A stretch of 19,366 bases of DNA from Archangiaceae bacterium (GCA_043750125.1 JAYVCD010000313.1:1-19366); one strand, 5' to 3'; positions 1,208 to 17,338 are shown, counted from the first letter of the stretch. The notes: generated from the letters alone by a model not told the origin. Made by a program: numbers and translations.

Positions 1208-1250
1208 GCTTCAGCCCGAAGCGGCCCAGCTCAGGCCCAGGCTCCGCACG

Positions 1251-2324: not shown

Positions 2325-2380
2325 GGGGCGGGGGTTTAACGCGAAGTCGGGGCAACGGCACGAGGTACAGTTTGCGCCGC

Positions 2381-3161: not shown

Positions 3162-3173
3162 CTGAGCCTCAGA

Positions 3174-3381: not shown

Positions 3382-3442
3382 GCGGCGCGGAGCTCAAAGG
3401 CAGAGACCGGGCGAATGTCCTTCAGCTGCGCTGCGATTGCCG

Positions 3443-4156: not shown

Positions 4157-4168
4157 GGGGAACGCGAA

Positions 4169-4411: not shown

Positions 4412-4473
4412 CATTGCTCCTACGAACGAAGAGGCTGACCCATTCCACCGCCTGGTCCAGACTGAAGCAACCC

Positions 4474-5256: not shown

Positions 5257-5906
5257 TGACCGGGCCGCACATCCCTCCCGCCCCGGCCCCGCTCGAGCCG
5301 GGCCAGTCGTTTCCCGGAGGCTGGTCGGTCGTCACCCTCTGGCCGTTGAGGCTGGAGCAGCAGGTCGATTCCGAGCTGCTGCGCCGGTCGGTGGTGCCGC
5401 TGGGGCCGCTGCTGCTGGGCGCGTTCGTGATTGCCGCCAGCTGGGAAGCACCTCCGGGAATTCGGCTTGCCGCCTGGCCGGTGGGCTTCGCGCTGCTGGC
5501 GGTCTTCGGGCTGGGGGTGCTGAACCTGATTCGCAGCGTGCGGCGAAAGCGAGAAGGCATCGTCCTCGCCGTCGACGCGCAGAGCGTGACCGGCTACCCC
5601 GAAGCGCGTTCCTGGCTCGGCGACTACTTCGTCCGGCTGGGCACGCATCCGCGGTCGGCGGTGAAGAGCGTGAGCCTGTGCGTCTACCGCGACCCGAAGC
5701 GGGGAACTTCGGCGCGCGCGAAGGTTCGCATCGAGCTCGAAGCCGACGCGGCGCTGGTGGGCCCCGAGGCGTCGGGCGACGACGCGCAGTGGCCGGCGGT
5801 GCGAGAGGCGCTGTTGCCTGCGGCGGCGGCGATCGCTGCGGCGCTGGGAAAGAGGCTGGTGCTCGACGACCCGGAAACGAAACAGCGGTTCGAAGTCGAC
5901 TGGTGA
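5256..5906 (+). CDS. Hypothetical membrane protein with two predicted TM helices and a soluble C-terminal domain
   Basis: ATG overlaps the ppk2 stop (TGATG). Two hydrophobic stretches: VVPLGPLLLGAFVIAASW and WPVGFALLAVFGLGVLNLI. Confidence 0.7.
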   Translation: MTGPHIPPAPAPLEPGQSFPGGWSVVTLWPLRLEQQVDSELLRRSVVPLGPLLLGAFVIAASWEAPPGIRLAAWPVGFALLAVFGLGVLNLIRSVRRKREGIVLAVDAQSVTGYPEARSWLGDYFVRLGTHPRSAVKSVSLCVYRDPKRGTSARAKVRIELEADAALVGPEASGDDAQWPAVREALLPAAAAIAAALGKRLVLDDPETKQRFEVDW

Positions 5907-5910
5907 AGCT

Positions 5911-6588
5911 TCAGGCCCACAGGCCCAACGCGACCAGCACCCCGACCAGCCGCAGCACGCTGTCCGGGCTGGTCGAGCCGGCGAGGACCGCGTCGAGAGA
6001 CTTTCCCGCGGCGAGCTCGCGGCAGACGCGCAGCTCGCTGGGGCCCAGCTCGAGCCGGGTGAAGACTTCGGCTTTGAGGTCGAGCGCCAGGGGCTGCTTC
6101 GGCCGTTCGGCGATGGAGTCGCGAATCGCCTGAAGGTTGATTCGCTTGCGGAAGGCGGCGGTCACGGCCCCCTCAAGGGGAATTCGAACCATCGGCTCGA
6201 CTCCAACACTGGCCACCAGGGTCACGGTGCCGGAAGACGCCATCGCGTTTTCCAGCCGCAGCCGCGCCTGGCGTTCGAGCGCGCTCGCCAGGTCGGTGGG
6301 GGTCAACAGCCCGTCGGCGATCAACTGATGCCCCAACAGGGTGCCCCGCTTTCGGGCTTCGTTGGCGACGGGCTCGATCAACACCGGATCCAGCCGACCT
6401 TCGGCGGCGAGCATGTTGCCCAGGCGCTCGGAGACGACCGGGCTCTCAGAGTTGATGAGACAGCCGCGCGAGACGTGGAGCACCCGCATGGCCCCGTCGG
6501 CCTTCGAGAGTGCTTTGAACGACCCGTCGGCCGAGCGCCGGGTGAGGTCGGAAAGAACCAACAGCACCATTGGATTCAGACTGGGCAT
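5911..6588 (-). CDS. Hypothetical protein, DUF4388-like, with MshEN-like RLG/LLG motifs
   Basis: ERLGNMLAAEGRL...LLGHQLIADGLLTPTDLASALERQ and a C-terminal helical segment ending VLRLVGVLVALGL. It starts 10 nt after the upstream stop. Confidence 0.7.
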   Translation of the reverse strand: MPSLNPMVLLVLSDLTRRSADGSFKALSKADGAMRVLHVSRGCLINSESPVVSERLGNMLAAEGRLDPVLIEPVANEARKRGTLLGHQLIADGLLTPTDLASALERQARLRLENAMASSGTVTLVASVGVEPMVRIPLEGAVTAAFRKRINLQAIRDSIAERPKQPLALDLKAEVFTRLELGPSELRVCRELAAGKSLDAVLAGSTSPDSVLRLVGVLVALGLWA

Positions 6589-6598
6589 CCGTCAGTTC

Positions 6599-7828
6599 TC
6601 AGCCATTGAGGCTTGCGACTTCGAGGTTCGAGCGCTCGGTCATCAAAGCGAGCTCAGCGTCGGTCGGGAAGCCCTTTGACTTCCAGCGCTCGGGTCGGTC
6701 GTCGGTGCGGGTCATCAAGCGGCCGACGACTTCGAGCGCGATTTCGAAACGGGCGGGCCAGACCTTCGGCTTCAATTCCCCTTCTCCGACGAGGCGGACG
6801 AAGTCGATTCGATCCGTTCGCGGCAGCAGTCCGTCGACTTCTTCCGTCCACGGAGTGCAGGTGTAGATTTCGCCCCCGTCGGTCCGGAAAGCCGAGAAGC
6901 GGGAGACGAATTGCGCCTCGCCTTTGTATTCGTACCAGGCGTCGAGCAGCTCTTTTTGCTGGGTGTAGGAATTGGCGCGCGACTGCAGCGCGAGGAAGTA
7001 GAGCTTGTCGAACGCGGCGCTGTCAGCCGGAGGTAGCCAGGCCTGCCAGCCGTCGCCGACCTGCTTGAAGGCGACTCCGGTGATGGCCCGCGGGTCCTGC
7101 ACCGCGTCGCGGGCGATTTCCGCCATGTTCGCCAGCGCCTGCGGGTCTTCGCTGCCGGCGATCATCAAGACGCTCGCGGCGGGGATCATCGCGACGTGTT
7201 CGCCCTTCACCTGCAGTCGCGAAATTTCTTCGCCCAGCAGCAGGCGGGCCGCGTCGTGACCATCGCCCCACGGCGAGGCCCACAGCCCGGGAGCCAACTG
7301 GCGAAACGGTTCTTTCGAGCGCAGCCGAAGGTTTGCGACCGCGTGCTGTTCGAGCTGGGCCAGCGACATGCCCCAGAGCGTCAGGCGCGAGGCGGTCACG
7401 TCCATCGCGGACGTAGGCAAGTCGAACACCGCGTTGACTTCGAGCTCGTCGTTGAAGTGCCGGTAGGGAATCTGCAGCAGGGCGCGTTCGGCTTCGAGCT
7501 CGACCTGGGCCGCCAGTTGGCGCTCGAGCACCGCGTGGTAGACGGACTCGCGCAGCCGGGGGAGCACGCCGCGCAGCACCTCGTCGAGGGGCGGAAACGC
7601 GCCGTTGTCGAGCAGGCTCCACAGGCGCCGCTGCAGCACCTTCTCGCGCTCGTGGAGCGCGGCGGCGGTGAACTCGTTGTACCCGTGCTTGAGAAAGCAA
7701 AAGCGCCAGAGGCCCTTTTCGCCTTCGACGATCAGGCAGAAGCGGGCGGCGTCGAAGCGAATCTCTCGCGTCATCCCCCGCGCTCGCAGGTGCCCGGTGG
7801 CCAAGTCTGCAAATTCGGCGGGAGTCAT
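6599..7828 (-). CDS. Hypothetical protein with a DUF1444/YtpQ-like central region
   Basis: Long ORF with GC-rich codon usage. AVANLR...WGDGHDAARLLL...LQVKGEHVAMIP...LMIAG resembles DUF1444. Start taken at ATG 7828 (MTPAEF) because the upstream extension overlaps the yjbQ relic. Confidence 0.7.
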   Translation of the reverse strand: MTPAEFADLATGHLRARGMTREIRFDAARFCLIVEGEKGLWRFCFLKHGYNEFTAAALHEREKVLQRRLWSLLDNGAFPPLDEVLRGVLPRLRESVYHAVLERQLAAQVELEAERALLQIPYRHFNDELEVNAVFDLPTSAMDVTASRLTLWGMSLAQLEQHAVANLRLRSKEPFRQLAPGLWASPWGDGHDAARLLLGEEISRLQVKGEHVAMIPAASVLMIAGSEDPQALANMAEIARDAVQDPRAITGVAFKQVGDGWQAWLPPADSAAFDKLYFLALQSRANSYTQQKELLDAWYEYKGEAQFVSRFSAFRTDGGEIYTCTPWTEEVDGLLPRTDRIDFVRLVGEGELKPKVWPARFEIALEVVGRLMTRTDDRPERWKSKGFPTDAELALMTERSNLEVASLNG

Positions 7829-7873
7829 CTTTGGGTTGCGAGCCTTACTACGAGTTGTCAGGGTCTTTAAGGT

Positions 7874-8088
7874 ATGTCGGTACTTCGTCAGGCCCAACAC
7901 ACGCTGCAGTTGGCGACCCGGGGGCGGGGGCTTTACGTCAATCACCCCTCAGGTGTCGCGGTGGGTTGAGGAAGAACAGCGGGCGGACGGGCTGTGCGTG
8001 CGCGGTTCCGGTCCAGGGGCTGTACCTGTTCGAGCACCGGCACGCGCCGAAAGTTAGACGCGTCGTCCTCCACTACCTCGGCACGTGA
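7874..8088 (+). pseudogene. yjbQ: Relic of a YjbQ/UPF0047 (secondary thiamine-phosphate synthase family) gene
   Basis: ATG 7874 gives MSVLRQAQHTLQLATRGRGLY, a frameshift gives ITPQVSRWVEEEQRADGLCV, and the sequence then jumps to QGLYLFEHRHAPKVRRVVLHYLGT*. These match the YjbQ N- and C-termini; the conserved core (HTSA, ENADP, AHI) is absent. Confidence 0.75.
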
Positions 8089-8109
8089 TGATGTTGTAGT
8101 CGTAGGGAA

Positions 8110-8931
8110 ATGACGCTCGACGAGCTGAAGATTCACGTCACCCAGGCTTATGCCGACCGCGAGAAGCTGAAGGAATACCTCTACGCGCGCGCGGTCCGCG
8201 ACACGGTCGAGCTGCTCGACCGGGGAGCGATTCGGGTGGCGGCGAAGGGACCGGACGGCTGGCAGGTTCACGCCTGGGTGAAAGAGGCAATCTTGCTGTA
8301 CTTCGCATTGCAGGAAATGAAGGTGATCGAGATGGCGCCCTTCGAGTTCCACGACAAGATTCCGCTGAAGAAGGGCCTGGCGGACGCGGGCGTTCGGGTG
8401 GTGCCTCCGGGGACGATTCGGTACGGGGCGTTCGTCGAACGGGGCGCGGTGGTGATGCCGGGGTACGTGAACATCGGGGCCTATGTCGGCGGCGGGACGA
8501 TGGTCGACACCTGGGCCACGGTGGGCAGCTGCGCGCAGATTGGCCGCAACGTGCACCTCTCTGGCGGAGTGGGAATCGGCGGAGTGCTCGAGCCGTCGGG
8601 CGCGACTCCGGTGATCATCGAAGACAACTGCTTCATCGGCAGCCGCTGCGTGGTGGTCGAAGGGGTGATCGTCGAGGAAGAAGCGGTGCTGGGCGCCAAC
8701 GTGGTGCTCACCTCGTCGACCCACATCATCGATGTCAGCGGGCCGGAAGAAGTGGTGCTCAAGGGCCGAATTCCCCGGCGCAGCGTGGTGATTCCCGGAA
8801 TGCGGACGCGAAAGTTTCCCGCCGGCGAGTACCTGACCCCGTGTGCGTTGATCATCGGGCAGCGGAAGGCGAGCACGGATCAGAAGACCTCGCTCAACGC
8901 CGCGCTTCGGGACTTCGCGGTGTCGGTGTGA
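8110..8931 (+). CDS. dapD: 2,3,4,5-tetrahydropyridine-2,6-dicarboxylate N-succinyltransferase
   Basis: LLDRGAIRVA, WVKEAILLYF, DKIPLK, RVVPPG, hexapeptide repeats MPGYVNIGAYV...MVDTWATVGSCAQIG, LSGGVGIGGVLEP and KTSLNAALR. Confidence 0.96.
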   Translation: MTLDELKIHVTQAYADREKLKEYLYARAVRDTVELLDRGAIRVAAKGPDGWQVHAWVKEAILLYFALQEMKVIEMAPFEFHDKIPLKKGLADAGVRVVPPGTIRYGAFVERGAVVMPGYVNIGAYVGGGTMVDTWATVGSCAQIGRNVHLSGGVGIGGVLEPSGATPVIIEDNCFIGSRCVVVEGVIVEEEAVLGANVVLTSSTHIIDVSGPEEVVLKGRIPRRSVVIPGMRTRKFPAGEYLTPCALIIGQRKASTDQKTSLNAALRDFAVSV

Positions 8932-9983
8932 CCCTCGCCGAACGGGCGCTGCGGCTGGTCGAGATCCCCAGCCCGATTGGGCACGAGCGGCAGATTGCAG
9001 ACTTCGTCGAGCAGTGGGCCCGCGGGCGCTTTCCCGCAGACCAGGTTTTTCGGCACAGCCATTCGCTGGTGGTGGGAGACCGCTTCGACCCCCGGCCGCA
9101 CGTGGCGCTGATTGGACACCTCGACACCGTGCCCGCACATGGGCAGGCGCCCGAGGCGCGGATCGAAGCGGGGCGGCTGCACGGCCTGGGCAGCTCGGAC
9201 ATGAAGGGCGCGCTGGCGGTGATGATGTCGCTGGCCGAGCGGCTGAAGCTCGACCGGCTGCCGGTGAATTTGCTGCTCGTCTTTTACGAGCGGGAAGAAG
9301 GGCCGTATCTGGACAACGGGCTGGGCCCGCTGATGGCCCAGGTGCCCGAGCTGTCGAAGCTCGCGTTTGGAATCGCGATGGAACCGACCGACAACCGGGT
9401 GCAGGTCGGATGCATGGGCACGCTGCACGCGACGGTGAGCTTCGAGGGGAAGAGCGCGCACTCGGCCCGGCCGTGGCAGGGGAAGAACGCGATTCATGCC
9501 GCGGGAACGCTGCTGACCGAGCTCGAGGCGCGGGGGCGGCACGAGGTGCGGACGGACGGGTTTGCGTTTTACGAAGTGATGACCGCGACGCTGGCGAAGG
9601 GCGGGCGCGCGCGGAACGTGGTCCCCGACGCGTTCGAGCTGAACTTGAACTACCGGTTCTCGCCCTCGAAGAGCCTGGTTCAGGCGCAGGAAGACGTGCG
9701 GGCGCTGGTCGCCGGGCGCGCTTCGGTCGAGTTCACCGACCTCTCGCCGTCGGGGCGGGTGTGCGGGGGAAATGCCTACTTTCAAAAGCTGCAGAAGCTG
9801 ACCGCGCTCGAGGCCGAGTCGAAGCAGGCGTGGACGGATGTCGCGCGTTTCTCGCAGGCGGGGGTCGATGCGGTGAACTTCGGGCCCGGAGAATCAGCGC
9901 AGGCGCACCAGCGCGATGAGAGCGCGCCCGTCGCCGCGTTGGAACAGGCGCACCGGATTCTGACTTCGTTCTTCGAAAGCTAG
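8928..9983 (+). CDS. dapE: Succinyl-diaminopimelate desuccinylase (M20 peptidase family)
   Basis: GHLDTVP, GLGSSDMKG, YEREEG, MEPT, AHSARPWQG, WTDVARF, NFGPG and AH motifs. The GTG start overlaps the dapD stop (GTGA). Confidence 0.93.
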   Translation: MTLAERALRLVEIPSPIGHERQIADFVEQWARGRFPADQVFRHSHSLVVGDRFDPRPHVALIGHLDTVPAHGQAPEARIEAGRLHGLGSSDMKGALAVMMSLAERLKLDRLPVNLLLVFYEREEGPYLDNGLGPLMAQVPELSKLAFGIAMEPTDNRVQVGCMGTLHATVSFEGKSAHSARPWQGKNAIHAAGTLLTELEARGRHEVRTDGFAFYEVMTATLAKGGRARNVVPDAFELNLNYRFSPSKSLVQAQEDVRALVAGRASVEFTDLSPSGRVCGGNAYFQKLQKLTALEAESKQAWTDVARFSQAGVDAVNFGPGESAQAHQRDESAPVAALEQAHRILTSFFES

Positions 9984-10104
9984 CTCGCCAACGGTCGCAA
10001 GTTCCCGCGGCGCGCCCAGCTCGAGGAGCCGCCTGCGCGTCTGCTCGAGGTTCGAATGGGGAAACACCAGGAAGTAACCGTACTCGCCGGTCTTGCACCT
10101 TCGG

Positions 10105-10212
10105 CGCTACCTTGCAGCGGAGCTGATCGAGGGAGAGTCGTTGATGCAGCGGATCAAGCGCGGACCATTGGCTGAGGACGACTTGCTCTCCCAGGGTCCG
10201 GCGGGAAGGTGA
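10105..10212 (+). pseudogene. Short fragment resembling Ser/Thr protein kinase subdomain V
   Basis: RYLAAELIEGESLMQRIKRGPLAEDDLL resembles the YLVMELxEGESLxxRLxxGPL segment of Hanks-type kinases. There is no start codon and no other subdomain. Confidence 0.55.
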
Positions 10213-10226
10213 TCGTCGCAGCTCGC

Positions 10227-10263
10227 TCGACATATCACGAGCCGGGCGTTTAGCATCATGATG
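10227..10263 (+). promoter_or_regulatory. Putative sigma70-type promoter and palindromic operator of vapBC
   Basis: TCGACA (10227-10232), an 18-nt spacer and TAGCAT (10251-10256), ending 6 nt before the GTG start with no SD sequence. The perfect palindrome CATCATGATG (10254-10263) overlaps the -10 element and the start. Confidence 0.6.
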
Positions 10264-10502
10264 TGCGAACCACTGTCACCATTGATGATGCTTTGATGAT
10301 GCAGTTGAAGACAGAGATGCGCCGCGCCGGCGAGTCTCTTCGAGAGACCCTCGAACGGGTCTTGCGGCGTGGGCTGCAGCCGCAGACTCAGTCGAAACGC
10401 CCGCGCTTCAAGATCAAGGCGCGTCCGATGGGCCTGAAGCCTGGGTACAGCTACGACAACATCGGCGAGCTGCTGTCCCGAATGGACCGAGAAGGCATCT
10501 AA
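10263..10502 (+). CDS. vapB: VapB-type antitoxin (ribbon-helix-helix)
   Basis: N-terminus MRTTVTIDDAL, 79 aa, stop overlapping the PIN gene start (TAATG). Confidence 0.88.
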   Translation: MRTTVTIDDALMMQLKTEMRRAGESLRETLERVLRRGLQPQTQSKRPRFKIKARPMGLKPGYSYDNIGELLSRMDREGI

Positions 10503-10939
10503 TGCACGTCCTCGACGCCAACATCCTGCTCTACGCCTACGACGCTGACAGCGCCCACCACAAACGGGTCTTCGCAGCTCTCGACGAATTGCTTGCCACT
10601 GGCGAAACGGTTTACCTGCCATGGCTGGCGGTCGTGGCGTTCGTTCGAGTCGCCAGCTCGCCGGGGCTGCTGAAGAGACCCTTGAGCCTGAGTGACGCGT
10701 TCGGGATAATCGAAGAGCTGTTCGACGAACCGAACGTTCGAGTTCTCGACCCTGGGCCGACTCATCTGCGCGAGTTTCGTGACGCGGCTGAGGATGGGCA
10801 GGTGACGGGTCCGATGGTGACCGACGCACATCTCGCAGCACTGGCAATCGAGAACGGGATTCAATTCTGGTCCGCCGACAAGGACTTCTCGCGATTCTCA
10901 CGGCTTCGCTGGAAGAACCCCCTGCTGCGCGCGAAATAG
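10502..10939 (+). CDS. vapC: VapC PIN-domain toxin
   Basis: VLDANILLYA, VTDAHLAALAIE and SADKDFSRF; 145 aa. Confidence 0.93.
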   Translation: MHVLDANILLYAYDADSAHHKRVFAALDELLATGETVYLPWLAVVAFVRVASSPGLLKRPLSLSDAFGIIEELFDEPNVRVLDPGPTHLREFRDAAEDGQVTGPMVTDAHLAALAIENGIQFWSADKDFSRFSRLRWKNPLLRAK

Positions 10940-11003
10940 TGTCTTTAAATACACTGAGGAACTGATTGTTGCGACACTGATAAGCTGGGGTGCATGATTT
11001 CGC

Positions 11004-11068
11004 TGCTGGCGCAGCGCAATCCAGGACGCTGGACCAAAACTGGCCAACGTTGCCGAATCGGGGCTGAA
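11004..11068 (+). repeat. Dispersed 65-bp direct repeat, copy 1 (copy 2 at 19194..19258)
   Basis: Ungapped manual alignment gives 58/65 identities, with core GCAATCCAGGAnGCTGGACCAAAACTGGCCnACGTTGCCGAA. Confidence 0.85.
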
Positions 11069-11112
11069 GTGGCCGAAAGTTCGGCGCGTGCAGCCCCCCG
11101 CTCGATTTTTCC

Positions 11113-11319
11113 TCAAGGTTTCTTCGGCGCGGGCGGCGGCGGGGTGAGAGTTCTCACTGGAAACGGTTCGCCTTGATCGTCGATTCCGGGCGCAAAGCTG
11201 GTCATCTTTCCTGGCTTTCCTTTTCCATCGGGCGTGGGCAACGCCTTCCGCAGTCCGGCGCTGTCCTTCTTCATCCGCTCGAGAATTTCTTTCTCTTCTT
11301 TCGTCAGCTCGTCGCTCAC
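11113..11319 (-). CDS. 68-aa protein coupled to the annexin-ART gene (candidate immunity or accessory protein)
   Basis: GTG start overlaps the upstream TGA (GTGA), with GAGGTG 5 nt upstream. It has a charged N-terminal helix (MSDELTKEEKEILERMKKDS) and a Pro-rich tail. Confidence 0.7.
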   Translation of the reverse strand: MSDELTKEEKEILERMKKDSAGLRKALPTPDGKGKPGKMTSFAPGIDDQGEPFPVRTLTPPPPAPKKP

Positions 11320-14021
11320 TTCACCACCTCGCTCAAATAGACCGTGGTGCGCCCGGTCGTCTTGTCGAGGTCCTTGGACAACACCTTGAACGCGGTGCCC
11401 GGCGTGAAGAGGACCTCTTTCTCGGCCGCGTAGTCCGACAGAAACGAGACATCGCGCCCATTTTTCACCGCGTTGATGACGAACAAGGTGTTGGCGTTGC
11501 CGAAGTTCTTGGCGACCGACTCATCGAGGGTCGTGCTGAGGAACGCCTTCTCTGCGATCACCTCGCCCTTGACGTACTTGTCGAGGACCGCGGGATCCAG
11601 ATGGGCCCCACGAAACACCGTCCCCTGGTGGGACGGCAGCTGATTGAGCGCAGAAGAGGCTCCCTTCACTCCGCTCGCCATTCCTTCCTGCGTCTTCCAC
11701 AGCGCGGTTTCACCTCGGAGCGCCGAGTTCATCTTCCGGTAGTAGTCACCGGTGTAAGCCTTGAGCGCCATCAGATCTTCTTTCGGAATCTTCGCGATAC
11801 CGGGGTTGGCGGCCTGCAGATCCCTGACCTTGCTCTCGTACTTGTAGGCATTTTCGGTCAGCCATTCCTTCGATTGGGCCCGGGTCGACACATCGGATTG
11901 GTACCGGGAAAGATCGATCTTCTCGCCCCCTACGTCGCTGTTGGTCGACACGTAGACGACCTTCGGCGGTGCCAGACCCTTGAGGCCGCCGATCGTCCCG
12001 CTGGTCGCCGCTCCGAACGCAGCGCCGAGCGCGCCGGCTTTGGCGACATTGCCTACTCCCGCGACAATTCCCTTGTCCCAGGTGCTGTCGGTGAACGCGG
12101 AGCCGCTCGCGCCGTTGATCCCACCGCTCACTGCGCCCTGGGTCGCGCCGTCGACCGCGGAGATCGCGACCCGCGCCGCCACGCTGCCTTCCGCCTTGAG
12201 CACCGAGCCCATCGCACCGCTCACCACCTTCTGCGCCGCACCACCGCCGATCAAGCTCGAGACTCCGTCGGCCGCGCCAATCGCCCCGTCGAGCGCTGCG
12301 GCGCCGGCGCTGTAGCCCTGGCCGGCGATCAAGCCCTTGGTCACGACCCGGGCGGTGGCTCCCCCGCCCGCGCCTGCCAGGGCCGCGACCACCAGCGGAG
12401 TCCCCGCTCCTGCCGTCGCCACCGCGATTCCGATTGCGGCAGTCGTGGTTACAACCGTCGCCACTGCATTGCCTGCGCTGTCCTTCGATTCGCGGTACAG
12501 CGAGACGTCGTCCTGGGTGTAGCCGATCAATTCGCCCAGCCGCTGGCTCTCGACCGCGTCGAGCTTTCCGTCTTTCTTCGCGTCTGCGTAGAAGGTGTTG
12601 GCGCGGTCGATGTTGCCGTCGAGCAGCTTGCCCTTGCCATTCAAGCCATCCATCACGAATTTGCTCGCCGCGTTCGCCAGGCCGCTGCGCTCGAAGGCGC
12701 GGGCCTCGTTCATCTTCTTCAGTGCCTGTTCGGGTGACGTGGGGATGCCAGCCAGGTTCTGCTTGAGCTCGAACGCATCACGGCCACCGACTTCGCCGCG
12801 CAGATCTTTGACCAGGTCGCTGCCGAACTGGGCCTGGTAGTCGGTCTTCAACTGGGCGATCTCTTCGCGGGTCCGGCCGGCGAGCACCTGAGTGATCTTC
12901 GCTTCGTCCGTTCCCATGCCCGTCATCGCCATTCGCAGCTCTTCGACGTCCGAGACCTTGCCGGTCGTCAGCAGCGACTTCGCGCGGAGCAAATCTTCAC
13001 CGCGCAGCTCTTTGTGCAGGTCGCTGAGCAGCTCGACGCCATTGACCTTCTTGTACTCGGCAGCGATCGCAGCCCGCTCGGTCCCCGATTTTCCCTCGAG
13101 GGTGGCCATGATCGCGCTCTCGTCGGTGCCCATGCCCTTCATCGCGGCTTTCAGCCTGGCCGCCGCCGCGCCCACTGCGTCGCCTTTGAGCAGCGCCTGC
13201 GCCTGCTGCCTCTGCGGGCCGGTGAGCTCTTTGTTCAGATCGGTGCTCAGCTCTGAGCCGGTTTGATTCTTGTACGACGCCAAAATCGCCGCGCGCGCTG
13301 CGGGGCCCTTGCCTTCGAGGGTCTTGAACAACGCTTGTTCGTCGGTCCCCAGCCCGGACATCGCCTTGCGCAGGCTCGCGGCATCGGCGCCCGCGGCATC
13401 TGAGTTGAGCAGCGCCCGGGCCCGGATCAGATCCGAGCCGCCCAGCTCTTTCGACAGCGCGTGGTCGAGGCTTCCGTGGTTCGTCTCGAAGCTCTGCTTG
13501 ATGGCCTTCAGGTCCTCGGGTTTCTTGCCTTGGAGCGCGCCGAACAGGCTCGACTCGTTGGTTCCCATTCCCTTCATCGCCCCGTAGAGCTGCTCGGCAG
13601 CCGCGGCCGACGCGTCACCTTTGAGCAGCGCTCGAGCGCGGGTCTGGTCCGTCCCCGACAGCTCTTTGTTCAGATCGGTGACCAGGTCGCGCTTGTAGTG
13701 ATCGGCGTACGTCTTCTTGATCGTGCCGATCTGCCCCGGCGATTTACCCTCGAGCGTGCGGAAGATCGCCGCCTCGTCGGTGCCCGCGCCGAAAATGCCG
13801 CCTTTCATCGCCTTGTACAGCGCGCTCGCATCGGGAGCGGCGTTGTAGGGCGGCTCCACGCTCGCCTTCACCGGCCGTGCTGCCACCGCCTTTGGAACCC
13901 AGCCCGCGGCGGGCTTGCTCACCAGTGTCGCCGCGACTGGCTTTGCGACAGGCACGGCTGCAGCAGTGGGTGCGATTGAGACTGGCTTGAGGGTTGCCGG
14001 GCGGCGGGGACCGTCGATCAC
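11316..14021 (-). CDS. Annexin-repeat protein with a hydrophobic Gly/Ala segment and a C-terminal R-S-E ADP-ribosyltransferase domain (~901 aa)
   Basis: Start set at GTG 14021 with AGGAG (14028-14032) 6 nt upstream. Five AMxGxGT(D/N)E repeats are followed by a hydrophobic run AVATVVTTTAAIGIAVATAGAGTPLVVAALAG. ART motifs are AYTG..Y..MNSALR, VFRG, FLSTT and EKEVLF. Confidence 0.9.
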   Translation of the reverse strand: MIDGPRRPATLKPVSIAPTAAAVPVAKPVAATLVSKPAAGWVPKAVAARPVKASVEPPYNAAPDASALYKAMKGGIFGAGTDEAAIFRTLEGKSPGQIGTIKKTYADHYKRDLVTDLNKELSGTDQTRARALLKGDASAAAAEQLYGAMKGMGTNESSLFGALQGKKPEDLKAIKQSFETNHGSLDHALSKELGGSDLIRARALLNSDAAGADAASLRKAMSGLGTDEQALFKTLEGKGPAARAAILASYKNQTGSELSTDLNKELTGPQRQQAQALLKGDAVGAAAARLKAAMKGMGTDESAIMATLEGKSGTERAAIAAEYKKVNGVELLSDLHKELRGEDLLRAKSLLTTGKVSDVEELRMAMTGMGTDEAKITQVLAGRTREEIAQLKTDYQAQFGSDLVKDLRGEVGGRDAFELKQNLAGIPTSPEQALKKMNEARAFERSGLANAASKFVMDGLNGKGKLLDGNIDRANTFYADAKKDGKLDAVESQRLGELIGYTQDDVSLYRESKDSAGNAVATVVTTTAAIGIAVATAGAGTPLVVAALAGAGGGATARVVTKGLIAGQGYSAGAAALDGAIGAADGVSSLIGGGAAQKVVSGAMGSVLKAEGSVAARVAISAVDGATQGAVSGGINGASGSAFTDSTWDKGIVAGVGNVAKAGALGAAFGAATSGTIGGLKGLAPPKVVYVSTNSDVGGEKIDLSRYQSDVSTRAQSKEWLTENAYKYESKVRDLQAANPGIAKIPKEDLMALKAYTGDYYRKMNSALRGETALWKTQEGMASGVKGASSALNQLPSHQGTVFRGAHLDPAVLDKYVKGEVIAEKAFLSTTLDESVAKNFGNANTLFVINAVKNGRDVSFLSDYAAEKEVLFTPGTAFKVLSKDLDKTTGRTTVYLSEVVK
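12750..13832 (-). repeat. Five tandem ~72-aa annexin repeats (protein-level repeat)
   Basis: GAGTDE, GMGTNE, GLGTDE, GMGTDE and GMGTDE are each followed by a Glu after 38, 37, 38, 38 and 38 residues (KELSG, KELGG, KELTG, KELRG, GEVGG). Confidence 0.9.
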
Positions 14022-14167
14022 TGAGGACTCCTGGTGAGGGGAAACGTGCCCCTGGATGAGACGAGGGCGAACGAAACCCGGATGCTCAAACAACACAACG
14101 TATATCGAAAGCCGTGGCAGATGTAACGGCACGTCCGCTCCGTGAAGCGGCCTCTTCCTGATGACTT

Positions 14168-14204
14168 CTCCCCCCGCGTCAGCTCGAGCGGGGGGGAGTT
14201 TTTT
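14168..14204 (+). terminator. Intrinsic terminator-like hairpin
   Basis: CTCCCCCCGC, a loop, GCGGGGGGGAG, then TTTTTT directly after. Confidence 0.6.
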
Positions 14205-14339
14205 GCCCGGGAACAACTCTTCGAACTCGGGTCGCAGGACACTGCCGCAGCCCTGCAGGTCGGGCCCCATTGCATTGGGCGTCCGAAGTCCGATCAACTA
14301 TGAGATATTGAGGGGCGTAGTAGCCCAGGGGGGGCTCAG

Positions 14340-15548
14340 ATGCCAACAGTCGCGAACGATCAAGACCGTCTTCGGTCGCTGAGGAGCTACGAGCTGCTCG
14401 ACACTCCACCAGAGGCCGTCTTCGACGCCGTGGTGCAGATCGCCTCGAGGCTCTTCACGGTTCCGATTGCGCTGATCTCATTGGTCGATGAGACCCGCCA
14501 GTGGTTCAAGGCCAGGGTGGGGCTCGAGCCGCCTCAGACGCACCGGGACGTCTCCTTTTGCGATCACGCCATTCGGCAGGCCGGGCCGATGATCGTCACC
14601 GATGCGCTGACGGACCCCCGCTTCGCAACCAACCCGCTGGTCCTCGGAGATCCAAAGATCCGTTTCTATTGTGGCGTGCCGCTGCGAACACCCGAGGGGC
14701 ACGCGCTCGGAACGCTGTGCATCATCGACCGCGTCCCGCGCCGCCTCGACCGCGACGAGATCGAACTGCTCACCCGGTTGGCAACAATCGTCGAGACCGA
14801 ATTCGAGCTTCGCAGGCGGCTCCGCCTCATCGACCTGAAGATCCAGGACGCCACGAAGACGCAGCGGGCCAAGGAAATGTTGGCGAGCATGCTGGTGCAC
14901 GATCTCCGCAGCCCCCTGACGACGATTGCGTTGTTGGCGAGCGTGCTGGCCAACGACAGTCCGCAGTCGCAAGAGATGGTCGCCGAGTTGATGGAAGCGG
15001 CAGAGACGATGCGGCGGATGCTCAACGACGTGCTCGACATCTGCCTCGCAGAGAGTGGGGAGCTGAAGCCTCGCGTTCGGCCGCTGGTTGCGCCGCAGCT
15101 GATTCAAGCGCTGGCCCCTGGGTGGCGTCGCGCGGTGCAGGCCAGGGCGCAGCGCCTGATCCTCGACCTCCCCGAGGTGGCTCATTCCTTCGAGGGCGAT
15201 CCGGAACTGCTCAGCCGGGTGCTGGCGAATCTCGTGGGGAACGCGATCCAATACGGCCCGACGGGCCAGACGATCACCGTTGGCACCCGGTTGCTGCCGA
15301 CCGGGGCAACGGGCTTCGAGGTCCTCGACCGTTGTCCGACGATTCCCACCGAGCAGACAGACGCGATCTTCGCGGCCTTCGAGCGCTTCGAGGATGGCCG
15401 AATGCACCCCGGTGGCCGCGGCCTCGGCCTTGCGTTCTGCAAGCTGGCGGTGGAGGCCCACGGGGGCACAATCGGGGTGGAGCCTGCCGAGGGGGGCAAC
15501 CGCTTCTATTTCACCCTGCCCCCGCCGCCGCAGCACGCCCGCGCCTGA
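14340..15548 (+). CDS. GAF-domain sensor histidine kinase (soluble)
   Basis: GAF region LLDTPPE..FD...PIALISLVD...QWFKA...SFCDHAI...DPRFATNPLV...RFYCGVPL...LGTLCIID. H-box HDLRSPL, N-box NLVGNAIQY and G2 box GRGLGLAFCK. The G1 box is degenerate (DRCPTI). Confidence 0.92.
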   Translation: MPTVANDQDRLRSLRSYELLDTPPEAVFDAVVQIASRLFTVPIALISLVDETRQWFKARVGLEPPQTHRDVSFCDHAIRQAGPMIVTDALTDPRFATNPLVLGDPKIRFYCGVPLRTPEGHALGTLCIIDRVPRRLDRDEIELLTRLATIVETEFELRRRLRLIDLKIQDATKTQRAKEMLASMLVHDLRSPLTTIALLASVLANDSPQSQEMVAELMEAAETMRRMLNDVLDICLAESGELKPRVRPLVAPQLIQALAPGWRRAVQARAQRLILDLPEVAHSFEGDPELLSRVLANLVGNAIQYGPTGQTITVGTRLLPTGATGFEVLDRCPTIPTEQTDAIFAAFERFEDGRMHPGGRGLGLAFCKLAVEAHGGTIGVEPAEGGNRFYFTLPPPPQHARA

Positions 15549-15560
15549 GGTCGACGGGGG

Positions 15561-15972
15561 TCGTTGCCTCACCGAATCTGCTACCGGCCGTGGCGGACCA
15601 GTGGAGGCCACAATGGGAACGAAAATCAGCGCGGAAGCGAGACAGCAGTTGGTGCAGGCGATCGGCGAGCGGTACCGAGGCGGCTCGAAGGACGAGAAGG
15701 TTCGGATCCTGGACGAGTTCGTCGCGGTCACGGGATTCCACCGGAAGCACTCGATTCGGATCTTGAACACCACCGAGCCGAGCTCGCCGAAGCGACCTCC
15801 ACGTCTGCGACTCTACGACCAAGCGGTCCGGGAGGCCCTCGTCGTCCTTTGGGAGGCTTCGGACCGAATCTGCGGCAAGAGGCTCAAGCCGCTGGTTCCG
15901 TTGTTGATCGTGGCGCTGGAGAAGCATGGGCACCTTCGGCTTGACGAGGTCATTCGCACGAAGCTGTTGATG
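15561..15972 (+). mobile_element. Truncated IS remnant: N-terminal ~120 aa of an ISNCY-like (integrase-core type) transposase with a possible left end
   Basis: ATG 15613 with GGAGG gives MGTKISAEARQQLVQAIGERY...EKVRILDEFVAVTGFHRKHSIRIL...YDQAVREALVVLWEASDRICGKRL. Similarity stops near 15972, before any DDE domain. TCGTTGCCTCA at 15561 resembles the terminus I recall for such elements; no partner repeat was seen. Confidence 0.8.
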
Positions 15973-16150
15973 GTGCCTCCGCTTCCAACTGCCCACAGGT
16001 CGTTCGAAGCCGCCCCCCAGATCCCTACCGCAGTCACATCGTTGGGGCCACTTCCCCAGACGCCGTTGAGGTCCTCGCTCACGCCTGGAACCGCCCCCCA
16101 GCTCACCCCGTCGAAGTGAACGAGTCCGGCGCTGCCCGCTGGCCAGATGT
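15970..16150 (-). pseudogene. Fragment of a VWGSGxxDVWAVG-repeat beta-propeller protein
   Basis: VHFDGVSWGAVPGVSEDLNGVWGSGPNDVTAVG joins directly to IWGAASNDLWAVGSGGTI, so two repeat units are fused without their linker. The fragment abuts the broken transposase. Confidence 0.65.
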
Positions 16151-16363
16151 GACCCGCAGAGCGCTGCCCCACGCCAATCGCGCCGGTGCCGAGGGTCACT
16201 TCGTGGTGACTGCCTTGAAGGGCGGTCATGAGATCTCCACCCGCGCGACCCACGACCGGCCAGAACTGTGAAAGCGAATCGAGGACGCCCGCATCGAAAG
16301 ATGTAGACGGATCCACCCCGCCCGCTTTTCGTGGATGGAATGTCGCGTACGGTCCGCCCTGTG

Positions 16364-17338
16364 ATGGCTTCAACGCGCCAGCTGCCGTGGGTAGAAGGAT
16401 CGCAGCCGCTGATGCTGGCTCCGATGCAGGGCGTCACCAATCGGGCGGTGCGGCACGTCTTCGCGCAGTGGGTTCGGCCCGACGTCCTCTTCACCGAGTT
16501 CATGCGCGTGCGCCCCGGAACGGTCGCGGGCGCGGCGCGGCTGTCAGACGGGGACCTCGACGACGCGAAGGCCCAGGAGCACGGGATCCCCCTCGTGGTG
16601 CAGCTCATCGGGCGGGATCGCGAGCCGCTGGTCGAGGCGGCCATCGCCGCGCAGGACGCCGGAGCGCGGCACGTGAACCTCAACATGGGCTGCCCCTACG
16701 GGAGAATGAACGTGGGGTGTGGCGGCGGAATGCTCGAGCGACCGGAGACGCTGCCCGACATCCTCCACGCACTGCGCGAGACCCTCTTCGGCTCGTTCTC
16801 CGTCAAGGTGCGCGCGGGCTACGACAACCCGGAGCAGATCTTCTCTCTGCTGCCGATCTTCGAGGCTGCGGGCGTCGACTTCCTCGTGCTGCACGCGCGC
16901 ACTGTGGTGCAGCGGTATGAAGGCCACGCGGATCATCGAATTACTGCGCGCGTGGTGAAGCAAACGCGGTTGCCGGTGATCGCGAACGGCGACATCTGCA
17001 CCCCGGAAGACGGAAACCGGGTGCGGAGCGAGACCGGCGCCGCGGGGCTGATGCTTGGCCGCGGAGCGATGCGAGATCCGCTCCTGTTCGATCGGCTGCG
17101 CGGCCGGGCGCCCCTGCAGCCGTCCTCGGAAGATTTGTTGGTCGCCCACCAGCGCTACCTGCGCGGGCTCGCTCAGAGCTACGGCGCGCTGTTCGGCGGC
17201 GACGCCCAGGTGTTGGCAAAGTTGAAGAGCTCTCTGGCGGTCATGGGCCTGCCGGAAGAGAGCCGCCCATTCCGCACGCTGCGCAAGGCGCAGACGGTCG
17301 AGGCGTTCTGTCAAGCGGTCGAGCAACTGGCGCCCTGA
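16364..17338 (+). CDS. tRNA-dihydrouridine synthase (Dus) family flavoprotein
   Basis: LAPMQGVT, FTEF, VQLIG, NLNMGCP, SVKVRAG, VLHART, PVIANGDI and MLGRGA. The start is uncertain (16331, 16340 or 16364) and the subfamily was not assigned. Confidence 0.9.
   Translation: MASTRQLPWVEGSQPLMLAPMQGVTNRAVRHVFAQWVRPDVLFTEFMRVRPGTVAGAARLSDGDLDDAKAQEHGIPLVVQLIGRDREPLVEAAIAAQDAGARHVNLNMGCPYGRMNVGCGGGMLERPETLPDILHALRETLFGSFSVKVRAGYDNPEQIFSLLPIFEAAGVDFLVLHARTVVQRYEGHADHRITARVVKQTRLPVIANGDICTPEDGNRVRSETGAAGLMLGRGAMRDPLLFDRLRGRAPLQPSSEDLLVAHQRYLRGLAQSYGALFGGDAQVLAKLKSSLAVMGLPEESRPFRTLRKAQTVEAFCQAVEQLAP

What the first reader, a model, noticed from the sequence alone, without database searches (positions are those of the whole stretch)
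11316..14021. Annexin-repeat / membrane-insertion segment / ADP-ribosyltransferase fusion: candidate Ca2+-dependent membrane-targeting toxin
Seen: a ~60-aa Pro/Ala-rich leader with no signal peptide, five annexin repeats (~12750-13832), a helical linker, a long Gly/Ala hydrophobic region (~11970-12470) and a C-terminal domain with FRG (~11610), STT (~11530) and EKE (~11420). Established: annexin repeats bind anionic phospholipids through Ca2+ and are mainly eukaryotic, with only sporadic bacterial examples. R-STS/T-ExE is the catalytic signature of cholera-toxin-like ARTs, and ExE usually marks Arg-specific enzymes. Binding, translocation and enzyme domains in this order is the layout of single-chain AB and polymorphic toxins. 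Inference: the annexin array docks on a target membrane and the hydrophobic segment delivers the ART, possibly in predation or anti-eukaryote defence. I cannot confirm from here that the architecture is undescribed.
Basis: partly seen in the sequence, partly recalled or inferred. Interest (0 to 1): 0.9.

Follow-up and report, generated by a model that had tools for sequence, protein, structure and literature searches.

The report
Annexin-led ADP-ribosyltransferase toxin with partner gene
This gene encodes a bacterial toxin in which five annexin repeats and a greasy membrane segment carry an ADP-ribosylating enzyme, followed by a tiny conserved gene that probably protects the producer; it is a new member of a toxin class predicted in 2012-2014 but never tested.

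Summary
The CDS at window 11319-14021 (-) encodes 901 aa: a Pro/Ala leader, five annexin repeats (Pfam E 2.5e-57), helical linker, Gly/Ala hydrophobic region and an R-S-ExE ADP-ribosyltransferase (ART).

Ninety-seven database proteins share the linker/hydrophobic module. The 87 with C-terminal tails of at least 80 aa fall into 44 unrelated tail clusters.

It recurs after the ART in 8 of 17 metagenome ART loci, including one protein without annexin. It travels with the ART cassette, so it is probably an immunity protein. That points to bacterial targets, or at least a target the producer shares, rather than eukaryote-only ones.

The concept is not new. Zhang et al. 2012 and Kodavali et al. 2014 described annexin-toxin fusions and proposed annexin-assisted membrane breaching. 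Thirteen other annexin+ART clusters are already in databases.

The export route is unknown. No T6SS or eCIS markers were found in the 89%-complete genome, but two T3SS-type export gates were.

Verdict: a new member of a known, untested kind, of moderate interest.

The parts
11319..14021 (-). Toxin CDS, 901 aa (stop codon at 11316-11318)
   Evidence: ORF list, translation, Pfam Annexin + ADPrib_exo_Tox + ART. GC3 is 0.82, like neighbouring genes.
14028..14032 (-). Shine-Dalgarno-like AGGAG, 6 nt before the GTG start at 14019-14021
   Evidence: Read from the sequence. Homologue P0003 starts at the equivalent residues. The in-frame upstream extension 14022-14297 has GC3 of 0.66.
13842..14021 (-). 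Leader, residues 1-60: Pro/Ala-rich, predicted disordered, no Sec or lipoprotein signal
   Evidence: 14 Ala and 11 Pro of 60, no Cys. pLDDT 38-50. 0 of 92 family members starting with M have a signal-peptide-like hydrophobic N-terminus by a crude hydropathy criterion.
12747..13841 (-). Five annexin repeats, residues 61-425, each with the G-x-G-T-[DN]-E loop. Repeats 1-4 also have the downstream KEL[STGR]G acidic cap; repeat 5 has GEVGG instead.
   Evidence: Pfam 5 stretches, E 2.5e-57. Motifs at residues 78, 151, 223, 296 and 368. PDB annexin VI E 1.3e-45. AF2 pLDDT >90. Foldseek annexins E 3e-15.
12477..12746 (-). Helical linker, residues 426-515: four helices, the last one long and running into the hydrophobic hairpin
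   Evidence: AF2 helices H430-445, H448-460, H463-484 and H489-534, pLDDT about 90-98. Conserved across the family (E444, R445, D505, Y509). No Pfam or PDB sequence match.
12354..12476 (-). Hydrophobic helical hairpin, residues 516-556, with invariant G538 and near-invariant P542 at the turn
   Evidence: Kyte-Doolittle 19-aa windows >=1.4 occur only here, apart from one in the leader. G538 is invariant in 42 of 42 and 26 of 26 aligned sequences. Low pLDDT.
11952..12353 (-). Gly/Ala/Ser-rich, weakly charged amphipathic helices, residues 557-690
   Evidence: Composition and charge map. Predicted helices H553-569, H572-607, H614-642 and H652-681 at low to medium pLDDT. Shared by 97 proteins.
11790..11951 (-). 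Junction, residues 691-744. Homology with the non-ART family members ends here (q ~660-707), and the ART-specific N-terminal helices begin, including the invariant 'DL' of the DLSxY motif.
   Evidence: BLAST end-points and the A4 alignment.
11319..11789 (-). ADP-ribosyltransferase core, residues 745-901. Catalytic codons: R804 (11610-11612), S829-T830 (11532-11537), E867 (11421-11423), E869 (11415-11417).
   Evidence: Pfam. NCBIfam XopAI at 74.8 bits, below its 300-bit cut-off. PDB matches Vis 1.1e-14, Tre1 5.6e-13, XopAI 3.5e-12 and ExoS 1.3e-9. Catalytic residues invariant in 10 of 10. pLDDT about 80-97.
11116..11319 (-). 68-aa ORF (stop codon at 11113-11115) whose GTG overlaps the toxin's TGA (GTGA). 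Candidate cognate immunity protein of the ART.
   Evidence: Sequence. Homologous 61-110-aa ORFs overlap or start within 13 nt of the ART stop in L076-L081, L083 and L088. 35 database proteins match at E <= 0.01, all unnamed or 'hypothetical'. GC3 is only 0.65.

Best explanation
This is a two-gene toxin-immunity cassette of a probable Myxococcaceae bacterium. The taxon is inferred from the names of its closest homologues. The toxin belongs to a large polymorphic-toxin family.

**Shown from sequence**
- The family's constant N-terminal part is a disordered leader without a Sec signal, an annexin array, a helical linker, and a hydrophobic hairpin embedded in Gly/Ala-rich amphipathic helices.
- The variable C-terminal part here is an R-S-ExE ADP-ribosyltransferase.

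**Proposed mechanism (each step inferred)**
1. The toxin is made in the cytoplasm and held inactive by the co-translated 68-aa protein.
2. It leaves the producer by a route not identified here.
3. At the target cell, the annexin repeats bind anionic phospholipids through Ca2+.
4. The hairpin and amphipathic helices insert into the membrane and carry the ART across.
5. In the target cytoplasm, the ART uses NAD+ to ADP-ribosylate an arginine of an unknown protein.

The target is most likely a competing or prey bacterium, because an immunity-like partner is conserved.
For: **Domains and catalytic residues**
- Pfam, PDB sequence matches and the AF2/Foldseek results agree on annexin and ART.
- R804, S829-T830, E867 and E869 are invariant in 10 of 10 relatives.

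**Polymorphism of the family**
- Of 188 family proteins held, 134 match the linker/hydrophobic module.
- 97, including the query, cover it fully.
- 87 of those have tails of at least 80 aa, which fall into 44 BLAST clusters. The largest clusters are 21 HExxH proteins and 9 ARTs.
- Pfam finds TNT, RelA_SpoT, RHS, eCIS_core, FHA and other domains in long members.

**Immunity-like partner**
- The 68-aa ORF overlaps the toxin stop (GTGA).
- It recurs directly after the ART in 8 of 17 metagenome ART loci. Two of these were not used to build the profile: L076 at E 4.9e-11 and L088 at 2.2e-9.
- One locus, L083, has a 377-aa ART protein with no annexin and no hydrophobic module.
- Five further small-ORF clusters share their longest-contig lengths with annexin-ART clusters. 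This suggests the same contigs, by inference.

**Related genome loci**
- 47 of 53 loci complete at the 3' end have a same-strand ORF starting between -30 and +150 nt of the toxin stop.
- Tail clusters and downstream-ORF clusters mostly coincide. L032, L036 and L050, whose records are labelled with three different bacterial groups (Saprospiraceae, Acanthopleuribacteraceae, Candidatus Cybelea), share both.

**Accessory status**
- Window 9954-16380 has no DNA match in 4 same-genus genomes, apart from short or 70%-identical partial matches to the kinase gene that lie elsewhere in those genomes. The left flank is syntenic.

**Annexin Ca2+-site motifs**
- The G-x-G-T loop is kept in all 5 repeats. 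The KEL-x-G acidic cap is kept in repeats 1-4, with GEVGG in repeat 5. The assignment of these motifs to the type II Ca2+ site is from general knowledge.
Against: - No function was measured. Membrane binding, translocation, NAD use, target and toxicity are all inferred.
- The 68-aa ORF has weaker codon bias than its neighbours (GC3 0.65 against 0.81-0.86). It has no known family and is unusually small and probably largely disordered for an immunity protein. Its binding to the ART was not tested here.
- 9 of the 17 metagenome ART loci lack the small ORF. These are the more distant or partial ARTs, at 30-39% identity.
- The 47-of-53 count is inflated by chance ORFs in GC-rich DNA.
- The hydrophobic region is modelled with low confidence and has no fold or sequence match.
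- No secretion apparatus could be tied to the gene. The two nearest upstream ORFs at the related genome loci (84 ORFs in all) show no recurrent secretion-system family among the 25 most frequent families listed.
- The five-repeat array does not superpose globally on the four-repeat annexin disc (TM to target about 0.3, rmsd about 13 Å).
Confidence: 0.6

Rival explanations
1. An anti-eukaryotic effector, for example against amoebae, fungi or nematodes. The annexin array targets phosphatidylserine or PIP2-rich eukaryotic membranes. The ART modifies a eukaryotic protein such as actin or a small GTPase. Delivery is by an injection device such as eCIS or T3SS. The small ORF is only a self-protection or chaperone factor.
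For: - Annexins are mainly eukaryotic, and eukaryotic annexins are the best structural matches.
- The ART's solved relatives include effectors used against eukaryotes: XopAI, ExoS/ExoT, SpvB and HopU1.
- Geller et al. 2021 list Annexin among eCIS-associated domains they predict to be anti-eukaryotic (PMC8213781, passage read).
- Zhang et al. 2012 assign annexin toxins to PVC-type delivery.
- 1 of 22 long family members carries an eCIS_core domain.
Against: - A conserved, translationally coupled partner tracks the ART cassette.
- Tail-matched downstream genes are the rule at the related genome loci examined.
- Other tails are typical antibacterial toxins: RelA_SpoT and TNT, a protein named as a zeta toxin, and Colicin D according to Kodavali et al..
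- The equally close ART relative Tre1 is an interbacterial toxin (its role is from listings and recall).
- The own genome shows no eCIS_core, Pvc16_N, VipB or phage-sheath match, at 89% completeness. The eCIS_core and Pvc16_N searches had no positive control.
Confidence: 0.2
2. The annexin and hydrophobic module acts in the producer, not the target. It anchors the toxin to the producer's own inner membrane or loads it into membrane vesicles, and release occurs by vesiculation or lysis. The hairpin is a membrane anchor, not a translocation device.
For: - No signal peptide is present, and a two-helix hydrophobic hairpin would leave both ends in the cytoplasm.
- Kodavali et al. predicted a 'cytosolic, membrane anchored' topology for one bacterial annexin toxin.
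- No secretion genes are linked to the locus.
Against: - Anchoring alone does not explain how a cytoplasm-acting, NAD-dependent enzyme would reach a target's cytoplasm.
- The module is strongly conserved upstream of 44 different toxin tail types, as delivery or translocation modules of polymorphic toxins are.
- The topology was not tested here.
Confidence: 0.15
3. Not a weapon. It is an endogenous regulatory ADP-ribosyltransferase that modifies a protein of its own cell at the membrane, with the 68-aa protein as its regulator.
For: - It has a cytoplasmic location by default, since no export signal was found.
- A histidine kinase gene lies next door.
- Regulatory ARTs exist in bacteria (general knowledge).
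Against: - The same N-terminal module carries dozens of unrelated tails, including proteases, a TNT domain (an NADase family, by recall) and other toxin domains.
- The gene is sporadic and absent from 4 same-genus genomes.
- The nearest characterised ARTs are all toxins or effectors.
Confidence: 0.05

Closest known systems
Annexin-containing polymorphic toxins of Haliangium ochraceum, Microscilla marina and Burkholderiales JOSHI_001 (Zhang et al. 2012, PMC3482391; Kodavali et al. 2014, PMC3894181)
   Same: - Annexin domain(s) lie N-terminal to a bona fide enzymatic toxin domain.
- Predicted transmembrane regions are present.
- Myxococcales are among the hosts, including a five-repeat Corallococcus protein.
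- The same hypothesis was published: that annexin aids membrane breaching and delivery (passages read).
   Different: - Those papers name lethal-factor-like/M90 peptidase, Ntox3, lipase and Colicin D tails. 'ADP-ribosyl' occurs 0 times in the 2014 text.
- Zhang et al. describe a single annexin domain and PVC-type delivery with an N-terminal PVC-metallopeptidase.
- Here there are five repeats, no such peptidase, no eCIS markers found in the genome, and a conserved 68-aa partner gene that those passages do not mention.
- Their figures and supplements could not be seen, so an ART example there cannot be excluded.
Tre1-Tri1 (Serratia proteamaculans T6SS ART effector and immunity; PDB 6DRE/6DRH)
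   Same: - The R-S-E ART core aligns over query residues 47-183 at E 5.6e-13, with the catalytic R, ST and ExE in register.
- It is an interbacterial toxin with a cognate immunity gene (role recalled; papers seen only as listings).
   Different: - Tre1 is annotated 'PAAR repeat-containing protein', which is T6SS-linked; here the carrier is an annexin/hydrophobic module, and no T6SS sheath gene was found in the genome.
- The candidate immunity here is a 68-aa protein of no known family. Tri1 is recalled as an ADP-ribosylhydrolase-fold protein.
Vis (Vibrio splendidus NAD+:arginine ART), XopAI, ExoS/ExoT, SpvB, HopU1
   Same: - They are the best sequence matches among solved structures (Vis 1.1e-14, XopAI 3.5e-12, ExoS 1.3e-9).
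- The ExE motif is shared. It usually goes with arginine specificity (general knowledge).
   Different: - About 30-35% identity over the core only.
- The NCBIfam XopAI score is 74.8 bits against a cut-off of 300, so it is not an XopAI orthologue.
- Those proteins have different carriers (T3SS signals and others) and no annexin.
Helical translocation or pore-forming domains built round a buried hydrophobic hairpin (colicin pore domains, diphtheria toxin T domain), and the transmembrane segments of T6SS effectors such as Tse6
   Same: This is a 'works like' comparison only. The layout is a hydrophobic helical hairpin flanked by amphipathic helices, placed between a binding module and an enzymatic cargo.
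   Different: - There is no sequence match. The only fold search used the whole-protein model, and its 50 listed best matches were all annexins or annexin fusions. The region is modelled at low confidence.
- The resemblance is recalled, not tested.

Membership tests
Annexin (PF00191) | A repeat of about 70 aa with five helices that matches the family profile above the curated cut-off | tested here: met
   191.3 bits against a cut-off of 25, in 5 stretches. Five five-helix units in the AF2 model at pLDDT >90. Foldseek and phmmer hits to solved annexins.
Annexin (PF00191) | Type II Ca2+ site: the G-x-G-T loop plus an acidic residue about 38 residues downstream | tested here: met
   G-x-G-T-[DN]-E is present in all 5 repeats, followed by KEL[STGR]G in repeats 1-4 and GEVGG in repeat 5. 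These are sequence motifs only. Ca2+ binding was not measured, and the motif definition is from general knowledge.
Annexin (PF00191) | Canonical four-repeat disc | tested here: not met
   There are five repeats. Global superposition on annexin tetrads is poor (TM to target about 0.3, rmsd about 13 Å). This feature defines typical eukaryotic annexins, not the Pfam repeat family.
R-S-E (cholera-toxin-like, C3/ExoS-type) ADP-ribosyltransferases (PF03496 / PF01129) | Profile match above the curated cut-off | tested here: met
   PF03496 at 58.3 bits (cut-off 23.4) and PF01129 at 44.1 bits (cut-off 22.3).
R-S-E (cholera-toxin-like, C3/ExoS-type) ADP-ribosyltransferases (PF03496 / PF01129) | Catalytic Arg, Ser-Thr-Ser/Thr and Glu-x-Glu in register with solved enzymes | tested here: met
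   R804, S829-T830-T831 and E867-K-E869 align with the corresponding residues of Vis and Tre1. They are invariant in 10 of 10 relatives.
R-S-E (cholera-toxin-like, C3/ExoS-type) ADP-ribosyltransferases (PF03496 / PF01129) | NAD+-dependent ADP-ribosyl transfer to a defined acceptor | not testable with these tools
   This needs an enzyme assay.
XopAI (NCBIfam NF041404, equivalog) | Score above the equivalog cut-off | tested here: not met
   74.8 bits against a cut-off of 300. It is a related ART core, not an XopAI orthologue.
Polymorphic toxin systems (sensu Zhang et al. 2012) | Conserved N-terminal trafficking or delivery region joined to diverse, unrelated C-terminal toxin domains | tested here: met
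   97 proteins share the module. 87 tails of at least 80 aa fall into 44 clusters. The domains found differ between members.
Polymorphic toxin systems (sensu Zhang et al. 2012) | Cognate immunity gene immediately downstream that co-varies with the toxin domain | tested here: inconclusive
   Gene arrangement and co-variation are met. The 68-aa ORF follows the ART in 8 of 17 metagenome ART loci plus the window, including an annexin-less ART protein. Tail clusters and downstream clusters coincide. Protective function and binding were not tested.
Polymorphic toxin systems (sensu Zhang et al. 2012) | A recognisable secretion route (T2SS, T5SS, T6SS, T7SS, PVC and so on) | tested here: not met
   There is no signal peptide, and no PAAR, RHS, VgrG, LXG or eCIS_core domain in this protein. 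No secretion genes lie nearby.
eCIS/PVC payloads | N-terminal eCIS_core (DUF4157) domain, or a location next to eCIS structural genes | tested here: not met
   The domain is not in this protein. The own genome has no match to PF13699, PF14065 or PF04984, at 89% completeness; the first two searches had no positive control. Only 1 of 22 long relatives has eCIS_core. An AAA ATPase was found in 5 of 84 upstream ORFs.

The most novel reading that the evidence does not exclude
The annexin array, helical linker and hydrophobic hairpin form a self-contained, Ca2+-triggered membrane-translocation device. It would let myxobacterial and other predatory bacteria move many different enzymes across a prey cell's cytoplasmic membrane without a needle or contractile injector. 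It might be the missing cargo and translocon of the needle-less T3SS*/Kil contact-killing machinery. A 2024 review says that machinery lacks needle and translocon homologues (PMC10849154, passages read). The 68-aa partner would then found a new family of very small ART immunity proteins.
Probability: 0.2. Interest if true: 0.8.

Novelty: new member of a known kind. Interest (0 to 1): 0.5.

Why it matters
Annexin-led toxins have been predicted from genomes since 2012, but my literature searches found no experimental work on them.

- **Size and spread.** The family is large: 309 representative proteins match the whole query at E <= 1e-30. Within the set examined, 44 tail types sit behind one conserved module. 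It is concentrated in Myxococcota but also occurs in other phyla.
- **A tractable test case.** This gene offers a compact one: an ART with a clear catalytic signature, next to a tiny candidate immunity gene. That pair can be used to test two things. The first is whether bacterial annexins bind membranes with Ca2+ and deliver cargo. The second is what this ART modifies.
- **If delivery is autonomous.** It would be a new way for proteins to cross bacterial membranes, and a clue to how myxobacteria kill prey.
- **If not.** It remains an ordinary addition to the polymorphic-toxin catalogue.

Tried and rejected
- **Downstream ORFs.** Pfam on the small ORF and nine other downstream ORFs found no family. 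My guess that one of them was SUKH-like was not confirmed.
- **Linker/hydrophobic region (431-700).**
  - The PDB sequence search gave only a chance-level hit, E 0.097.
  - The ESM Atlas gave neighbours below 0.9, including clusters carrying PT-TG, TNT and DUF637. These are leads only and were not used as evidence.
- **Junction motif.** I looked for a conserved motif, like VENN in CdiA, between module and tail. A loose pattern matched only 24 of 91 members, mainly the ART ('DLSxY') and HExxH ('hhDE') classes. I dropped the idea of a general motif.
- **Promoter and terminator scan of 10850-14450.** It found 0 promoter-like sites and 2 terminator-like sites on the wrong strand, below the shuffle mean. 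This is uninformative.
- **Secretion genes upstream of relatives.** No T6SS or eCIS structural family appeared in the 25 most frequent Pfam families among 84 upstream ORFs. Only those 25 of 86 families were visible.
- **First AF2 model (26-sequence alignment).** The ART came out at low confidence. It was replaced by the 42-sequence model.
- **Foldseek with the whole model.** All 50 listed best matches were annexins or annexin fusions, so it says nothing about the other domains.
- **Complex prediction.** A prediction of the ART with the 68-aa protein returned no model, so their binding is untested.
- **Simple insertion.** I rejected the idea that the gene sits in a simple insertion between conserved flanks. 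The left flank is syntenic with one congener, but the right-hand Dus gene lies on another contig there.
- **Earlier findings.** A look-up returned nothing.

Full report
**1. What is in the sequence**

The long minus-strand ORF is 11316-14297. It most likely starts at the GTG at 14021. An AGGAG lies six nt upstream of that GTG. The 65%-identical homologue P0003 begins with the same residues. The in-frame extension upstream has poorer codon bias, GC3 0.66 against 0.82 for the gene. The protein is 901 aa.

Pfam finds Annexin (E 2.5e-57, five stretches), ADPrib_exo_Tox (8.2e-16) and ART PF01129 (2e-11). NCBIfam finds only a sub-threshold XopAI match, 74.8 bits against a cut-off of 300.

| Part | Residues | Window coordinates |
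|---|---|---|
| Leader | 1-60 | 13842-14021 |
| Annexin repeats | 61-425 | 12747-13841 |
| Helical linker | 426-515 | 12477-12746 |
| Hydrophobic hairpin | 516-556 | 12354-12476 |
| Gly/Ala-rich helices | 557-690 | 11952-12353 |
| Junction | 691-744 | 11790-11951 |
| ART core | 745-901 | 11319-11789 |

FRG, STT and EKE are at residues 803, 829 and 867.

**2. Domain checks**

- **Annexin, by sequence.** The annexin region matches solved annexins by sequence, with annexin VI at E 1.3e-45 and 71 distinct PDB sequences at E <= 1e-10.
- **Annexin, by fold.** Foldseek gives E 3e-15 to 1e-10. The five-repeat array does not superpose globally on the four-repeat disc, at TM to target about 0.3.
- **Ca2+-site motifs.** Each repeat keeps the G-x-G-T-[DN]-E loop. 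Repeats 1-4 keep the downstream KEL-x-G acidic residue, and repeat 5 has GEVGG. I take these to be the type II Ca2+ site from general knowledge.
- **ART.** The core matches Vis (1.1e-14), Tre1 (PDB 6DRE/6DRH, 5.6e-13), XopAI (3.5e-12), ExoS, ExoT, SpvB and HopU1. In an alignment of ten relatives, R804, S829-T830, E867 and E869 are invariant.
- **Structure models.** A first AF2 model left the ART poorly defined. A model from a 42-sequence alignment reached mean pLDDT 81.7, with annexin, linker and ART well defined. Residues 526-553, 589-632 and 670-690 stayed below 50.
- **Hydrophobic region.** Residues 515-700 are 24% Ala, 21% Gly and 12% Val, with few charges. Only 516-556 is hydrophobic enough for a membrane-spanning hairpin. 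G538 is invariant and P542 nearly so.

**3. The family**

A word-indexed search found 48 proteins. An exhaustive HMMER search found 5462 representatives at E <= 1e-3, of which 309 were at E <= 1e-30.

Most hits align to query residues about 55-680 and then diverge. Of the 188 relatives held:
- 134 match the linker/hydrophobic module;
- 97, including the query, cover it fully;
- 87 of those have tails of at least 80 aa, which fall into 44 BLAST clusters.

The largest tail cluster, 21 proteins, has an HExxH motif visible in the printed tails. One member gives sub-threshold Pfam hits to Peptidase_M90 and the anthrax lethal-factor domain. The second cluster, 9 proteins, is this ART. Other members carry TNT, RelA_SpoT, RHS, eCIS_core, FHA, DnaJ or PI3/PI4-kinase domains. 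One is named by its source as an AvrRxo1-like zeta toxin.

None of 92 members that start with M has a signal-peptide-like N-terminus, by a crude hydropathy test.

In GTDB genomes, 61 loci were found. They are mostly Myxococcota (Corallococcus, Myxococcus, Pyxidicoccus, Archangium and MAGs). Some records are labelled Bdellovibrionota, Vulcanimicrobiota, Saprospiraceae, Chloroflexi, Acidobacteria, Obscuribacter, Ideonella or Rhodobacterales.

**4.

A 68-aa ORF (11116-11319, minus strand) starts with a GTG that overlaps the toxin's TGA (GTGA). GAGGTGG lies just upstream. Its codon bias is weak (GC3 0.65), so I looked for conservation.

A metagenome scan with the ART alignment returned 17 loci. 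In L077-L081 and L083, a 64-81-aa ORF overlaps or starts within 13 nt of the ART stop and aligns with the window's ORF. L5, L13, G45, D48, G50 and F53 are invariant. A profile built from these also found the ORF in L076 (E 4.9e-11) and L088 (2.2e-9), which were not in the profile. The nine loci without it hold the more distant or partial ARTs.

In L083, the ART protein is 377 aa, has a Gln/Asn/Ser-rich N-terminus, and has neither annexin nor hydrophobic module. The small gene still follows it. It therefore travels with the ART cassette and not with the annexin carrier. That is the behaviour of an immunity gene rather than a carrier-specific chaperone.

The protein database holds 35 such small proteins, all unnamed or 'hypothetical'; the few that carry a source name are from Myxococcaceae or Myxococcales MAGs. 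Five share longest-contig lengths with annexin-ART proteins, which suggests they lie on the same contigs. Whether the two proteins bind was not tested.

**5. The same arrangement across the family**

Of 53 genome loci with a complete toxin 3' end, 47 have a same-strand ORF of at least 50 aa starting between -30 and +150 nt of the stop. That figure is inflated by chance ORFs in GC-rich DNA.

Clusters of toxin tails and clusters of downstream ORFs largely coincide. One pair is shared by L032, L036 and L050, whose records are labelled Saprospiraceae, Acanthopleuribacteraceae and Candidatus Cybelea. None of ten downstream ORFs has a Pfam family.

**6. Genomic setting and export**

The window is a whole contig of a 6.17-Mb, 89%-complete MAG. 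The gene is single-copy there.

Four same-genus genomes lack the gene, with only ~66-residue weak hits. Window 1089-9953 is syntenic with one of them. Window 9954-16380 has no counterpart there beyond short or partial matches to the kinase gene. The Dus gene sits on another contig. This is an accessory region, and it also holds a PIN-domain toxin-antitoxin pair.

Neighbouring genes are unrelated to secretion. In the own genome I found no match to eCIS_core, Pvc16_N, VipB or Phage_sheath_1. The first two searches lacked a positive control. I did find two FHIPEP (T3SS-type export gate) genes.

Among 84 upstream ORFs of related loci, no secretion-system family recurs in the 25 families shown. An AAA ATPase appears five times. 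The export route is therefore open.

**7. Mechanism**

- **Shown from sequence:** the architecture, the intact catalytic signature, the polymorphic family, and the conserved coupled partner.
- **Inferred:** neutralisation by the partner; export; Ca2+-dependent binding of the annexin array to anionic lipids of the target; insertion of the hairpin and amphipathic helices; entry of the ART; and arginine ADP-ribosylation of an unknown target using NAD+.

The conserved partner and the antibacterial nature of several sister tails make bacteria the more likely targets. A eukaryotic target is not excluded.

**8. Comparison with what is known**

- **Zhang et al. 2012** (PMC3482391, passages read) reported annexin domains in PVC-delivered polymorphic toxins of Haliangium and Microscilla. 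They proposed that the domains help breach target membranes.
- **Kodavali et al. 2014** (PMC3894181, passages read) catalogued bacterial annexins with toxin domains and transmembrane regions, including Myxococcales and a five-repeat Corallococcus protein. 'ADP-ribosyl' does not occur in that text.
- **Geller et al. 2021** (PMC8213781, passages read) list Annexin among eCIS-associated domains.
- **Literature searches.** Five searches found no paper describing an annexin-ART fusion or any experiment on these proteins. The library lacks most subscription journals, and I could not see figures or supplements.
- **Databases.** Fourteen of 25 long proteins matching the ART profile, including the query itself, are annexin+ART. 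NCBI names some of them 'ADP-ribosyltransferase'.

**9. Verdict**

This is a new member of a known but experimentally untouched kind. What this work adds is the 68-aa candidate immunity family, the size and diversity of the carrier family, and the absence of an identified injector. Interest is moderate (0.5). It would be higher if the carrier proves to be an autonomous translocation device.

Noticed in passing
window 10263-10939 (+): A VapBC-like toxin-antitoxin pair. A 79-aa ORF (10263-10502, no Pfam hit) overlaps by one base a 145-aa PIN-domain ORF (10502-10939, PF01850 E 1.9e-12). It lies in the same accessory region as the annexin toxin.
   Followed up: partly
window 9954-16380: This stretch holds VapBC, the 68-aa ORF, the toxin, a GAF histidine kinase and an unassigned 391-aa ORF. 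Four same-genus genomes have no DNA match to it beyond short or 70%-identical partial matches to the kinase gene. The left flank (1089-9953) is syntenic with G004:C30. The Dus gene (16381-17331) is conserved but lies on a different contig there.
   Followed up: partly
L004 8876-9421 (+) compared with protein P0008: In L004 the annexin toxin ORF ends after its HExxH domain. A separate 181-aa ORF follows, starting 'MENRGYWNPGHHDP...'. The first ~70 residues shown match the C-terminal domain that is fused in frame in P0008 (1243 aa). The same toxin module therefore exists both split and fused.
   Followed up: no
proteins P0094 (511 aa), P0174 (366 aa), P0231 (365 aa): Relatives that have the ART without annexin repeats. 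P0094 matches query residues 432-899 (linker, hydrophobic module and ART) and P0174 matches 507-899. They are either natural short forms or truncated gene calls on short contigs. P0231 is labelled 'partial'.
   Followed up: no
proteins P0015, P0016, P0018-P0020, P0023: In a first look at 32 relatives, six have fewer than 95 residues after the end of their alignment to the hydrophobic module. The carrier may therefore have an activity of its own, for example pore formation, or these may be truncated or decayed copies.
   Followed up: no
own genome G000:C132:10813-12834 and G000:C381:1225-3156: Two FHIPEP (SctV/FlhA-type) export-gate genes, at 770 and 700 bits. No T6SS sheath, phage sheath, eCIS_core or Pvc16_N match was found in this 89%-complete MAG.
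   Followed up: partly
upstream ORFs of related loci (alignment A6): 5 of 84 nearest-upstream ORFs carry an AAA ATPase domain, and 3 carry the 'WHD variant' domain. This might mark a minority of loci that sit beside eCIS-like clusters. The tally did not show which loci they are.
   Followed up: no
L083 4332-5465 (+) and protein P0235: The same ART subfamily occurs with other N-termini. One is a Gln/Asn/Ser-rich 200-aa region on a 52%-GC metagenome contig. Another is a 440-aa protein of the cyanobacterium Anthocerotibacter panamensis.
   Followed up: partly
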